Translations under genes and position numbers: made by a program
The notes under the pieces: model-generated
What the model was told of the DNA's origin: nothing
What the model saw: only the letters and a program-made list of their open reading frames with translations
Database searches by the model: none
Shown: positions 2,977 to 3,450 of the stretch, in pieces
How positions within the stretch are numbered: the stretch's first letter is position 1
How the letters are laid out: each line of letters starts with the position of its first letter
Assembly (NCBI GenBank): GCA_902787685.1
Contig: CADAHH010000004.1
Location: 96,310-160,309 of the forward strand
DNA length: 64,000 bases
Direction of reading: 5' to 3'
Source: an uncultured Eubacteriales bacterium
Lineage (GTDB): Bacteria > Bacillota > Clostridia > TANB77 > CAG-508

Positions 2977-3164
2977 TTTTGCTCCTTTTTCAATCAAAAA
3001 ATATGTTTTAATTTTATAATATTTTCTTTATTTTGTCCACAATTTTCATAGTATTTTATAGTAAATTTAATTATTTTTATACTTTCGACAGATTATTACA
3101 AACTTCGCATTTTATAAATGATATACTATGCTTATGGCTATATGCCTCGAAAGGAGGTGATAAT

Positions 3165-3296
3165 ATGCCTACAAAAGAACAAAAGAGAAAAGGCTCTTCA
3201 AAATTTCGTAAGCTAATACATAATACCTTTTGCTATTTAGATAAAGTTTACAAAATTCTAAGAGTTATTGACCTTATTGTGAAATTATTTCATTAA
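3165..3296 (+). CDS. Small basic/amphipathic protein, 43 aa (MPTKEQKRKGSSKFRKLIHNTFCYLDKVYKILRVIDLIVKLFH); candidate type I toxin
   Basis: SD AAGGAGGTGA lies 4 nt before the ATG at 3165. Extended -10 (TGaTATACT, 3119-3127) upstream. A cctc/gagg hairpin can sequester the SD. A terminator follows directly. Confidence 0.5.
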   Translation: MPTKEQKRKGSSKFRKLIHNTFCYLDKVYKILRVIDLIVKLFH

Positions 3297-3302
3297 TAGG
3301 TC

Positions 3303-3337
3303 AAAAAGCAGGCATTTTGGGATGCCTGCTTTTTTTA
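3303..3337. terminator. Bidirectional intrinsic terminator
   Basis: aaaaagcaggcat / atgcctgcttttttt, with an A-run and a T-run flanking a GC-rich stem. Confidence 0.8.
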
Positions 3338-3366
3338 TGACTATTGATAATATGCCTACAATTATC
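3303..3366 (-). ncRNA. Candidate antisense antitoxin sRNA (~60 nt)
   Basis: Minus-strand TTGCAA (3400-3395)-16-TATAAT (3378-3373). The transcript begins with the complement of the direct repeat at 3345-3361, which equals 3158-3174 (SD end, ATG, codons 2-3 of the small ORF), and ends at the shared terminator. Confidence 0.4.
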
Positions 3367-3450
3367 AATATTATTATACTACAAATCAAAAAAATTGCAA
3401 TATTTTTTGATAGATTTGTTTAAAAATCGTTCGAGCTTTTTCGACATTGT

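What the first reader, a model, noticed from the sequence alone, without database searches (positions are those of the whole stretch)
3119..3400. Third cassette with the same convergent ORF/antisense/direct-repeat layout but an unrelated 43-aa basic peptide
Between hslO and hydA lie, in order: an extended -10 promoter; an SD-sequestering cctc/gagg hairpin; AAGGAGGTGA; a 43-aa ORF (Lys/Arg-rich N-terminus, amphipathic C-terminus); a GC-rich bidirectional terminator; a perfect 17-nt direct repeat of the SD-ATG-codon 2-3 region (3158-3174 = 3345-3361); and a minus-strand TTGCAA-16-TATAAT promoter reading into that repeat. The regulatory logic is the same as in the suf cassettes, but the cargo differs. 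That suggests a modular family of small antisense-controlled genes.
Basis: partly seen in the sequence, partly recalled or inferred. Interest (0 to 1): 0.65.

Follow-up and report, generated by a model that had tools for sequence, protein, structure and literature searches.

The report
Antisense-controlled small toxin-like gene cassette
A 385-bp module between hslO and hydA encodes a 43-residue basic helical peptide whose ribosome-binding site and start codon are covered by a convergent small antisense RNA; this is the design of the enterococcal par/Fst type I toxin-antitoxin locus, but with an unrelated peptide that has no membrane-spanning segment and with candidate Spo0A binding sites at both ends.

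Summary
Window 3070-3454 is a conserved module with these parts:
- an extended -10 promoter
- a hairpin that sequesters the Shine-Dalgarno (SD) sequence
- a 43-codon ORF (3165-3296)
- a perfect bidirectional terminator
- a minus-strand TTGCAA-16-TATAAT promoter
- two direct repeats, not one (3132-3141 = 3335-3344; 3158-3174 = 3345-3361), which flank the SD hairpin

About 14 intact copies exist in uncultured Clostridia, in at least six genomic contexts. In every copy the downstream repeat tracks the start-codon region: 17 of 27 inter-RNA pairs show changes on both sides, and 0/500 shuffles match. The ORF stays at 42-44 codons with only in-frame indels and a coding-type substitution pattern.

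This is the pAD1 par (RNA I/RNA II) layout. The peptide is not Fst-like. It has a +8 charge, a single amphipathic helix, no transmembrane segment, and no hit in any family library.

Three independent relics keep only the antisense half; no copy keeps the ORF alone. That fits a toxin, but toxicity is untested.

Each of the three cassettes in the window carries tandem Spo0A-type boxes, and the window encodes SigK.

The suf cassettes share the layout and short motifs, but their backbone does not align with this module.

Verdict: a new variant of a known kind.

The parts
3070..3454 (.). Whole conserved module. Similarity to relatives in other genomic contexts begins and ends here.
   Evidence: nhmmer envelope; multiple alignment of 8 loci
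3084..3090 (-). Perfect 0A-type box (TGTCGAA on the minus strand), about -50 from the predicted toxin transcription start. Weaker 10-bp-phased half-matches lie at 3094-3100 and 3104-3110.
   Evidence: conserved in all homologous loci; box definition from PMC3485338 and PMC2731898
3119..3127 (+). Extended -10 promoter of the peptide mRNA (TGaTATACT). No -35 match.
   Evidence: Sequence; invariant TGtTATACT in relatives. No expression data.
3134..3337 (+). Predicted peptide (toxin-like) mRNA, about 205 nt. Ends are inferred, not mapped.
   Evidence: Promoter and terminator positions; fold z = -4.7
3132..3141 (+). Direct repeat 1, mRNA copy (TTATGGCTAT), at the extreme 5' end of the mRNA.
   Evidence: Duplex prediction; repeat table; co-variation GGCTAT<->GGCCAT in both copies (helix 1)
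3144..3158 (+). 5' stem-loop that sequesters the Shine-Dalgarno sequence (GCCUC / GAGGU, loop GAAAG). It can be extended by the 5' GGC pairing with codon 2.
   Evidence: The pairs are invariant, so there is no co-variation for or against.
3150..3160 (+). Shine-Dalgarno region AAAGGAGGTGA.
   Evidence: conserved in all copies
3158..3174 (+). Direct repeat 2, mRNA copy (TGATAATATGCCTACAA): 3' edge of the SD, start codon and codons 2-3.
   Evidence: co-variation
3165..3296 (+). 43-codon ORF plus stop: MPTKEQKRKGSSKFRKLIHNTFCYLDKVYKILRVIDLIVKLFH.
   Evidence: 42-44 codons in all intact copies, in-frame indels only, codon position 3 most variable
3303..3334 (.). Shared bidirectional intrinsic terminator (13-bp arms, 6-nt loop, A-run / T-run).
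   Evidence: I4; folds; compensatory G-C<->A-U change in relatives
3335..3361 (-). Downstream copies of repeats 1 and 2, contiguous (27 nt). Transcribed on the minus strand, they form the antisense seed.
3300..3366 (-). Predicted antisense (antitoxin-like) RNA, about 65 nt: a 5' hairpin with the anti-start-codon sequence in its loop, then the terminator.
   Evidence: Fold z = -5.9; alignment fold. Ends are inferred.
3373..3400 (-). Antisense promoter TTGCAA-16-TATAAT.
   Evidence: both hexamers conserved in all complete copies, and the 16-nt spacing checked only in the window and L001
3425..3446 (-). Tandem 0A-type boxes TGTCGAA-AAA-GCTCGAA followed by CGATT, at about -60 to -80 from the antisense start. 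The same motif occurs once at each suf cassette.
   Evidence: three tandem sites in 64 kb, all at cassettes; 0.1 expected

Best explanation
This is a chromosomal, par-like type I toxin-antitoxin-type module.

Proposed mechanism:
1. An extended -10 promoter makes an mRNA of about 205 nt. Its 5' leader folds so that the Shine-Dalgarno sequence is paired (predicted).
2. A near-consensus convergent promoter makes an antisense RNA of about 65 nt that stops at the same hairpin terminator (inferred from sequence).
3. [quoted passage not shown]
4. Pairing clamps the SD hairpin between two intermolecular helices and blocks translation initiation. The pairing is shown by co-variation. The translational block is inferred by analogy with par RNA I/RNA II.
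5. When the antisense RNA falls, the 43-residue peptide is made. It is cationic (+8) and forms a single amphipathic helix. It is probably growth-inhibitory, acting at the membrane surface or on nucleic acids. This is the least supported step.
6. Candidate Spo0A boxes upstream of both promoters may tie the balance of the two RNAs to entry into sporulation (speculative; direction unknown).
For: Layout: all layout elements are present and conserved in 8 aligned loci and in further copies.

Inter-RNA pairing:
- Cognate duplex energies average -31.2 kcal/mol, against -17.2 for non-cognate pairs.
- The cognate partner is the best in 8 of 10 rows and 9 of 10 columns.
- The two paralogues in L004 are clearly insulated from each other (cognate -34.6/-21.3, cross -12.5/-10.4); the two in L002 less so (cognate -31.5/-32.8, cross -19.9/-24.4).
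- 91.2% of cells are paired, against 77.4% in shuffles and 28-41% when the partner is slid.
- 17 of 27 pairs change on both sides; 0/500 shuffles reach this.
- 15 cells are mRNA-G paired with antisense-U, against 2 of the reverse wobble.

Coding:
- The ORF is 42-44 codons in about 14 intact copies, with only in-frame indels.
- pN/pS is 0.23-0.76.
- Variable columns at codon positions 1/2/3 number 21/18/29, and 9/5/13 in the C-terminal half.

Match to par: convergent promoters, a shared bidirectional terminator, two direct repeats (DRa/DRb), a 5' stem-loop over the SD, and a 5' helix (PMC7472228).

Toxin-like behaviour: three independent relics (L033, L034=L035, L040) have lost the ORF or its expression signals but keep the promoter, repeats and terminator of the antisense RNA. 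No locus has the ORF without the antisense half.

Peptide properties: predicted as one helix, residues 4-42, pLDDT 80; hydrophobic moment 0.59.
Against: - There is no expression, toxicity or binding data of any kind. Promoters and RNA ends are consensus inferences.
- The peptide lacks what typical type I toxins have: a transmembrane segment (best 19-residue Kyte-Doolittle mean is 1.06) and a charged C-terminal tail.
- It matches no toxin family in Pfam, NCBIfam, PADLOC or PHROGs.
- Three of three relics losing the ORF side has p = 0.125 under a coin-flip model, so it is only suggestive.
- The register of the downstream repeat was chosen by best identity, which inflates the percentage paired. 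It does not inflate the co-variation.
- SD-hairpin pairs are invariant, so they are untested by co-variation.
Confidence: 0.6

Rival explanations
1. The cassette is an antisense-controlled small protein that is not a toxin. For example, it could be a stationary-phase or sporulation-linked regulator, or a membrane-curvature or nucleic-acid-binding helix. Its expression window would be set by the antisense RNA and possibly by Spo0A. The RNA mechanism would be as in the best explanation, but the biology would not be toxin-antitoxin.
For: - No transmembrane segment; a cationic amphipathic helix with a conserved basic N-terminal motif QKRK-SS-KF-KLIH.
- No toxin family match.
- The module is chromosomal and has no match in plasmid or phage collections.
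- 0A-type boxes sit at both ends, and a sporulation sigma factor is encoded in the window.
Against: - Decay is one-sided: the ORF is lost and the antisense half is kept, three times independently.
- Two copies on each of two contigs (L002, L004), each copy with its own repeat sequence, insulated clearly in L004 and only partly in L002, and placement in many genomic contexts. These are typical of toxin-antitoxin modules.
- The same genome holds two cassettes of the same layout that encode a classical hydrophobic mini-toxin.
Confidence: 0.27
2. The minus-strand promoter mainly serves the downstream gene (hslO here) by read-through. The repeats would then be a by-product of local duplication or gene conversion, and antisense regulation would be incidental.
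For: - The antisense promoter points toward hslO.
- In most contexts the flanking genes are on the same strand as the antisense RNA.
Against: - A perfect 13-bp terminator lies between that promoter and hslO.
- hslO has its own promoter-like site at 3039..3011.
- The module keeps this promoter in contexts without hslO (L002, L004, L005, L029).
- The repeats are too short (10 and 17 nt) for gene conversion, yet they co-vary, and the mismatches are biased toward G.U-compatible ones, which only matters at the RNA level.
Confidence: 0.05
3. The module is a miniature mobile or repeat element, and its conserved parts reflect recent spread rather than function.
For: - Two copies on one contig in both L002 and L004.
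- At least six different genomic neighbourhoods.
- Sharp similarity boundaries at the outer boxes.
Against: - No terminal inverted repeats or target-site duplications. The ends are the same 8-mer in direct orientation and are conserved with the module.
- No transposase nearby.
- Copies differ by up to 40% at the protein level while keeping the ORF, the promoters and the matched repeats, so the conservation is ancient and under selection.
Confidence: 0.05

Closest known systems
par locus of Enterococcus faecalis plasmid pAD1 and its chromosomal homologues (Fst toxin mRNA RNA I / antitoxin RNA II; Fst/Ldr family)
   Same: - Convergent promoters and one shared bidirectional intrinsic terminator.
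- Two direct repeats transcribed in opposite directions, giving complementarity that covers the SD and start codon.
- An intramolecular 5' stem-loop over the SD, and pairing of the extreme 5' end.
- Repeat sequences diverge between paralogues, which avoids cross-talk (PMC7472228).
   Different: - The peptide is unrelated. It has no hydrophobic transmembrane domain, no PXXXG(C) motif and no conserved Trp, and its charged tail is at the N- rather than the C-terminus.
- No YUNR loop motif is conserved in the terminator loop.
- Candidate Spo0A boxes flank the module.
- The host is an uncultured low-GC clostridial lineage.
Clostridioides difficile type I toxin-antitoxin modules (CD2517.1-RCd8, CD2907.1-RCd9, CD0956.2-RCd10)
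   Same: Clostridial, convergent small ORF plus antisense RNA; toxins unannotated and without homology to other families (PMC6563280).
   Different: - The C. difficile RNAs share long overlaps.
- Their toxins have a hydrophobic N-terminus and a Lys-rich C-terminus.
- Many are in prophages.
- Here the overlap is limited to the terminator plus repeat-derived pairing, the peptide polarity is reversed, and no phage or plasmid link was found.
TisB/IstR-1 of E. coli (from my own knowledge, not tested here)
   Same: A short helical toxin whose helix carries several charged residues; translation is blocked by a small RNA.
   Different: TisB still spans the membrane. IstR-1 is divergently encoded and acts at a ribosome standby site. 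The locus is under LexA control. There is no sequence similarity.
Spo0A-controlled promoters with two 0A boxes separated by 3 bp (abrB; phage phi29/Nf A2c, A2b-A3)
   Same: A perfect TGTCGAA box plus an imperfect box 3 bp away, placed upstream of sigma-A-type promoters (PMC2731898 and PMC3485338).
   Different: Binding is untested here. No type I toxin-antitoxin module is known to me to be under Spo0A control, and none turned up in the literature search.

Membership tests
par-type (RNA I/RNA II) type I toxin-antitoxin regulatory layout | Convergent promoters for the toxin mRNA and the antisense RNA | tested here: met
   Extended -10 at 3119-3127 (+) and TTGCAA-16-TATAAT at 3400..3373 (-). Both are conserved in all complete copies. 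This is sequence-level evidence only.
par-type (RNA I/RNA II) type I toxin-antitoxin regulatory layout | A single bidirectional intrinsic terminator shared by both RNAs | tested here: met
   Perfect 13-bp arms at 3303-3334 with an A-run and a T-run. There is a compensatory change in relatives.
par-type (RNA I/RNA II) type I toxin-antitoxin regulatory layout | [quoted passage not shown] | tested here: met
   3132-3141 = 3335-3344 and 3158-3174 = 3345-3361. 17 of 27 pairs show changes on both sides; 0/500 shuffles reach this.
par-type (RNA I/RNA II) type I toxin-antitoxin regulatory layout | An intramolecular 5' stem-loop sequestering the SD, and a helix involving the extreme 5' end | tested here: inconclusive
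   The SD hairpin is predicted in all copies, but its pairs never vary. The 5' GGC / codon-2 GCC helix is kept in 5 of 7 sequences.
Fst/Ldr toxin superfamily | Hydrophobic transmembrane domain with a PXXXG(C) motif, a conserved Trp, and a charged C-terminal tail | tested here: not met
   The best 19-residue Kyte-Doolittle mean is 1.06. There is no Pro or Gly in the helix and no Trp, and the charge cluster is N-terminal. There is no Pfam or NCBIfam hit.
Type I toxin-antitoxin system (general) | Small protein whose expression is toxic, neutralised by an antisense RNA acting on its mRNA | not testable with these tools
   The antisense pairing is supported. Toxicity is only suggested, by relics that keep the antitoxin half alone.
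Type I toxin-antitoxin system (general) | Toxin shorter than 60 aa with a predicted transmembrane domain and a charged C-terminus (typical, as in PMC6563280) | tested here: not met
   The length criterion is met (43 aa). The transmembrane and C-terminal charge criteria are not.
Spo0A regulon | 0A box TGTCGAA, commonly paired with a second box 3 bp away, near the promoter | tested here: met
   Perfect boxes lie at 3084-3090 and 3440-3446, the latter with a partner 3 bp away. The window has 8 perfect boxes against 1.9 expected, 5 of them in the cassettes. All three tandem sites are at cassettes.
Spo0A regulon | Spo0A~P binds the site and changes transcription; the organism encodes Spo0A | not testable with these tools
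   Only indirect evidence: the window encodes a sporulation sigma factor, SigK (302 bits against a cutoff of 252).
Miniature transposable element | Terminal inverted repeats and target-site duplication | tested here: not met
   The ends are direct copies of TTTCGACA and belong to the conserved module. No duplications appear at the context boundaries.
Any Rfam RNA family | Score at or above the family gathering threshold | tested here: not met
   The only hits in the window are two tRNAs. Sub-threshold hits at the cassette are driven by the terminator.

The most novel reading that the evidence does not exclude
The module, together with the two suf cassettes, is a Spo0A-gated peptide switch. Phosphorylated Spo0A would bind the tandem boxes upstream of the antisense promoter (and upstream of the toxin promoter in the suf cassettes), shifting the mRNA/antisense balance at the onset of sporulation. 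A cationic amphipathic peptide would then be produced at a defined developmental moment, either as a killing or lysis factor or as a non-toxic developmental effector. This would be the first link between type I toxin-antitoxin-style RNA control and the master sporulation regulator, and the peptide would be a new class of type I cargo that does not span the membrane.
Probability: 0.25. Interest if true: 0.75.

Novelty: new variant of a known kind. Interest (0 to 1): 0.5.

Why it matters
- It extends the par regulatory design (two direct repeats plus a shared terminator) beyond the Fst/Ldr toxins for which it was described. Searches that rely on toxin homology or on a transmembrane segment miss loci like this one.
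- It gives a compact natural set of co-varying mRNA/antisense pairs. At least seven specificity variants exist, and two contigs (L002, L004) each carry two of them. This is useful for studying how paralogous RNA antitoxins avoid cross-talk.
- The antitoxin-only relics are a natural experiment pointing to a cost of the peptide.
- If the flanking boxes are real Spo0A sites, the cassettes would connect small-RNA-controlled peptides to the decision to sporulate in an uncultured clostridial lineage. That is directly testable with gel shifts and reporter fusions.

Tried and rejected
- **Rfam.** Gathering-threshold and permissive scans gave only terminator-driven sub-threshold hits.
- **Protein family libraries.** Pfam, NCBIfam, PADLOC and PHROGs gave nothing at E below 0.03 for the 43-aa peptide, its distant relative, or the 21-aa suf peptides. 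A profile search of PDB sequences gave only noise.
- **Fold search.** The AlphaFold model is a single helix, so a fold search would not be informative and was not run.
- **Mobile-element link.** tblastn against 72,556 plasmids and 50,697 phages found no match. An IMG/VR peptide scan found no relative.
- **Wider family.** An exhaustive HMM search of 1.84 billion representatives found only 3 further proteins. A word-index search with the most distant member found only itself.
- **Common backbone with the suf cassettes.** Not alignable.
- **Hydrophobic minus-strand ORF 3285-3389 (34 aa).** Its TTG start lies upstream of the predicted antisense start, and its reading frame and sequence are not conserved in relatives.
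- **Other perfect 0A boxes (9924, 42471, 59250).** They were inspected, and none belongs to a further cassette.
- **Flank motif in viral contigs.** It gave 21 hits, none of which is a cassette of this kind. By my rough estimate that count is near chance, although many hits share a TTCGAC-N4-TTCGACA form.
- **Empty hslO-hydA site.** None was found. Relatives with 77% Hsp33 identity have a different upstream neighbour.
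Full report
**1. What is in the sequence**

Between the Hsp33 gene (2074-2976, minus strand) and an [FeFe] hydrogenase gene (3500-5275, minus strand; both confirmed), the plus strand carries these elements in order:
- an extended -10 element, TGaTATACT (3119-3127), with no usable -35
- a small hairpin in which GCCUC (3144-3148) pairs with the GAGGU of the Shine-Dalgarno (SD) sequence (3154-3158)
- the SD region AAAGGAGGTGA (3150-3160)
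- an ATG at 3165 opening a 43-codon ORF that ends at 3296
- a perfect inverted repeat (3303-3315 / 3322-3334) flanked by an A-run and a T-run

On the minus strand, TTGCAA-16-TATAAT (3400..3373) matches 10 of 12 consensus positions and reads into the same hairpin.

The 17-nt repeat 3158-3174 = 3345-3361 is exact. It occurs only twice in the window, even when 2 mismatches are allowed; 0.08 matches are expected.

The predicted mRNA and the predicted antisense RNA both fold much better than shuffled sequence (z = -4.7 and -5.9). The antisense RNA is a 5' hairpin with the complement of AUGCCUACA in its loop, followed by the terminator.

They lie at about 13200-13500 and 14650-14900. They are 80% identical to each other, and each has one 24-28-nt repeat over the start codon. 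They encode 21-residue hydrophobic peptides, MKKFIRLVAMILIYLISKSDD and MKKLLKLVAMILIYLISKSDN.

**2.

Duplex prediction between the mRNA leader and the antisense RNA found a second block of complementarity. TTATGGCTAT (3132-3141), at the very 5' end of the mRNA, repeats as TTATGACTAT (3335-3344), directly abutting the 17-mer.

In the mRNA the two repeats are separated by the 16-nt SD hairpin. In the antisense RNA they form one 27-nt stretch. Pairing would therefore clamp the SD hairpin between two intermolecular helices.

The conserved unit is also larger than reported. It spans 3070-3454 and ends on both sides in TGTCGAA-type boxes.

**3. Relatives**

The peptide is very rare in protein databases:
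- two other proteins among 5.8 billion
- three loci among 185,579 species genomes, all uncultured Clostridia assembled from metagenomes
- two metagenome contigs
- three more proteins from an exhaustive profile search

A nucleotide profile of the module, run on all fetched loci, found second copies on two contigs and several relics. A survey of contigs carrying close Hsp33 orthologues added more copies.

In total there are about 14 intact copies in at least six neighbourhoods: hslO-hydA; next to an LRR/DUF285 gene; next to an SDR-like gene (inferred by eye from its N-terminal sequence, not checked against a family library); between a tRNA/remA-gmk-rpoZ cluster and a peptidyl-prolyl isomerase; and others. 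There is no match in plasmid, phage or viral collections.

Every intact copy keeps the whole layout. This includes the most distant copy (L029, a 44-aa peptide), in which the repeat and anti-SD sequences are entirely different but sit in the same places.

**4. Is the ORF coding?**

- The ORF is 42-44 codons in all intact copies, and the three length changes are whole codons.
- The stop codon varies among TAA, TGA and TAG.
- Pairwise pN/pS is 0.23-0.76.
- Variable alignment columns fall 21/18/29 on codon positions 1/2/3, and 9/5/13 in the nearly invariant C-terminal half LDKVYKILRVIDLIVKLFH.
- The two other plus-strand frames are full of stops. The hydrophobic minus-strand frame is not conserved.

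I take the ORF as real.

**5. Is the antisense pairing real?**

Codons 2-4 differ among copies: Pro-Thr, Pro-Asp, Pro-Asn, Ala-Thr, Ala-Ala, Thr-Arg, Thr-Ser-Ser and Ala-Val. The downstream repeat follows each change.

On a fixed-register alignment of 11 distinct copies:
- 91.2% of mRNA-antisense cells form standard pairs, against 77.4% after shuffling partners among sequences and 28-41% after sliding the register.
- 17 of 27 pairs have changes on both sides.
- The co-variation score is 0.434 against 0.184, and 0/500 shuffles reach it.

One caveat applies. The register of the downstream 17-mer was set by best identity, which favours the paired percentage. It does not favour the compensatory changes.

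Mismatches are strongly biased: 15 cells have G in the mRNA opposite U in the antisense RNA, against 2 of the reverse wobble. That bias matters only if the two strands meet as RNA. It argues against DNA-level homogenisation of repeats this short.

In duplex-energy terms:
- Cognate pairs average -31.2 kcal/mol and non-cognate pairs -17.2.
- Two paralogues 1.4 kb apart in L004 give -34.6 and -21.3 with their own partners, but only -12.5 and -10.4 across.

**6. What it is**

This is the layout of the pAD1 par locus and its chromosomal relatives, as summarised in PMC7472228:
- convergent promoters
- a shared bidirectional terminator
- two direct repeats, DRa and DRb, whose transcription in opposite directions creates complementarity over the initiation region
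- a 5' stem-loop over the SD
- a helix at the extreme 5' end
- poorly conserved repeat sequences that keep paralogues from cross-reacting

The regulatory membership tests are met at the sequence level. The SD hairpin cannot be tested by co-variation because it never varies.

The toxin membership test fails. Fst-family toxins have a hydrophobic domain with PXXXG(C), a conserved Trp and a charged C-terminal tail. This peptide instead has:
- net charge +8, with a basic N-terminal third
- one predicted helix spanning residues 4-42 (pLDDT 80)
- a best 19-residue hydropathy of 1.06, below the usual 1.6 Kyte-Doolittle cut-off for a membrane span (the cut-off is from my own knowledge)
- a hydrophobic moment of 0.59, typical of a surface-seeking amphipathic helix

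It also departs from the general description of type I toxins in Clostridia (PMC6563280).

So the module works like par. [quoted passage not shown]

**7. Evidence bearing on toxicity**

At the hslO-linked locus there are six intact cassettes: the window, L001, L003, L027, L038 and L039. There are also three independent relics:
- L034 (identical in L035) has a clean 146-nt deletion from inside the SD to just before the terminator, at an AAAG microhomology.
- L033 has lost the promoter, the leader and about 30 codons.
- L040 has the ORF side replaced by unrelated sequence.

All three relics keep the terminator, both downstream repeats, the antisense promoter and the outer boxes. A fourth locus, L032, fuses the first 32 codons to a phosphatase fragment.

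No locus keeps the ORF without the antisense half. This is what a toxin with an RNA antidote predicts. With only three events it is suggestive, not significant.

**8. The flanking boxes**

The motif AATCGTTCGASNNNNNTCGACA occurs three times in 64 kb, once per cassette. Read on the other strand it is TGTCGA(A/C)-N3-(T/G)(G/C)TCGAA-CGATT, that is, two Spo0A '0A boxes' (core TGTCGAA) separated by 3 bp. That arrangement has been footprinted for Spo0A on phage phi29/Nf promoters. The TGTCGAA core is recognised by C. difficile Spo0A as well (PMC2731898 and PMC3485338).

The window holds 8 perfect boxes against 1.9 expected. Five of them are in the three cassettes, and all three tandem sites are at cassettes, against 0.1 expected.

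In this cassette, the tandem site lies about 60-80 nt upstream of the antisense start, and a single perfect box lies about 50 nt upstream of the mRNA start. In the suf cassettes, the tandem site lies just upstream of the toxin promoter. The boxes are conserved with the module in all genomic contexts and in the relics.

The window encodes the sporulation sigma factor SigK, so the lineage carries sporulation genes. Binding by Spo0A, and the direction of any effect, are untested. I give this link a probability of about 0.4. I found no report of a Spo0A-controlled type I module.

**9. Relation to the suf cassettes**

The layouts are the same. The cassettes share the SD and the 0A-type element, but they do not align otherwise (nhmmer E = 0.43). 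The shared 13-mer is on the opposite side and in inverted orientation.

The 'modular family' is therefore a shared design, and perhaps a shared regulator. It is not one backbone with exchanged cargo.

**10. Verdict**

- The best explanation is a par-like, antisense-RNA-controlled module encoding a new, atypical and probably growth-inhibitory peptide.
- Confidence is about 0.85 for the RNA control and about 0.6 for the full toxin-antitoxin reading.
- Novelty: a new variant of a known kind. Interest is moderate.

Noticed in passing
window 13189-13510 and 14589-14915: The two suf cassettes sit on the plus strand in two consecutive intergenic gaps of a minus-strand sufC-sufB-sufD-sufS-sufU cluster. 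Each brings a bidirectional terminator into the cluster. The tandem 0A-type boxes lie 15-20 nt upstream of the sufS and (probable) sufD start codons. The annotated sufD ORF start at 14674 probably over-extends into cassette B.
   Followed up: partly
window 2075-2095 and 3474-3494; also L001 575-670, and L033 and L038 between hslO and the cassette: A palindromic element of about 45 nt (…CCCATTTGACAAATGGGACTGTCCCCAATG…) sits just downstream of the hslO and hydA stop codons. It is present in one or two extra copies at the same locus in relatives. It looks like a lineage-specific REP-like or terminator element.
   Followed up: partly
L008, L010-L012, L014, L018, L023 (IMG/VR contigs), around the match positions listed: A group of related viral contigs (GC 0.43-0.47) shares a conserved intergenic stretch containing TGTCGAA-CGN-NGTCGAA-CGATT, the same tandem 0A-type motif as the cassettes. 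Other low-GC viral contigs carry AATCGTTCGACnnnnTTCGACA as well. These may be Spo0A sites in phages of spore-formers.
   Followed up: partly
window 41484-42131 (-) and 42340-42500: This is a sporulation sigma factor SigK gene (NCBIfam NF004471, 302 bits). Its match starts at profile position 19, so the pro-sequence may be absent or the start miscalled. About 230-350 nt upstream lies a GC-rich stretch of about 120 nt flanked by 25-nt inverted repeats, with a perfect 0A box at 42471. It has no Rfam hit.
   Followed up: no
L032 179-382: A chimeric ORF. The cassette's promoter, leader and first 32 codons are fused in frame to a fragment of a dual-specificity phosphatase (Pfam DSPc). The antisense half is absent.
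   Followed up: partly
L004 1501-1880 and 2907-3288; L002 15-396 and 3645-3948: There are two paralogous cassettes on one contig (1.4 kb and 3.5 kb apart), each with a different start-codon/repeat sequence. Predicted cross-pairing is much weaker than cognate pairing.
   Followed up: yes
window 9880-9960: An isolated perfect 0A box (9924) lies immediately before a terminator-like hairpin (GAGACTAC…GCAGTCTC), between the NuoE-like gene and mnmA. No small ORF or repeat is evident.
   Followed up: no
window 33891-36486: A TrwB/TraG-like type IV coupling protein gene is followed by a 231-aa ORF with no family match. This may be a remnant of a conjugative element.
   Followed up: no
most cassette loci (window, L002, L005, L029): The peptide gene is usually on the strand opposite to both flanking genes. 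Read-through from neighbours would therefore add antisense rather than peptide mRNA.
   Followed up: no
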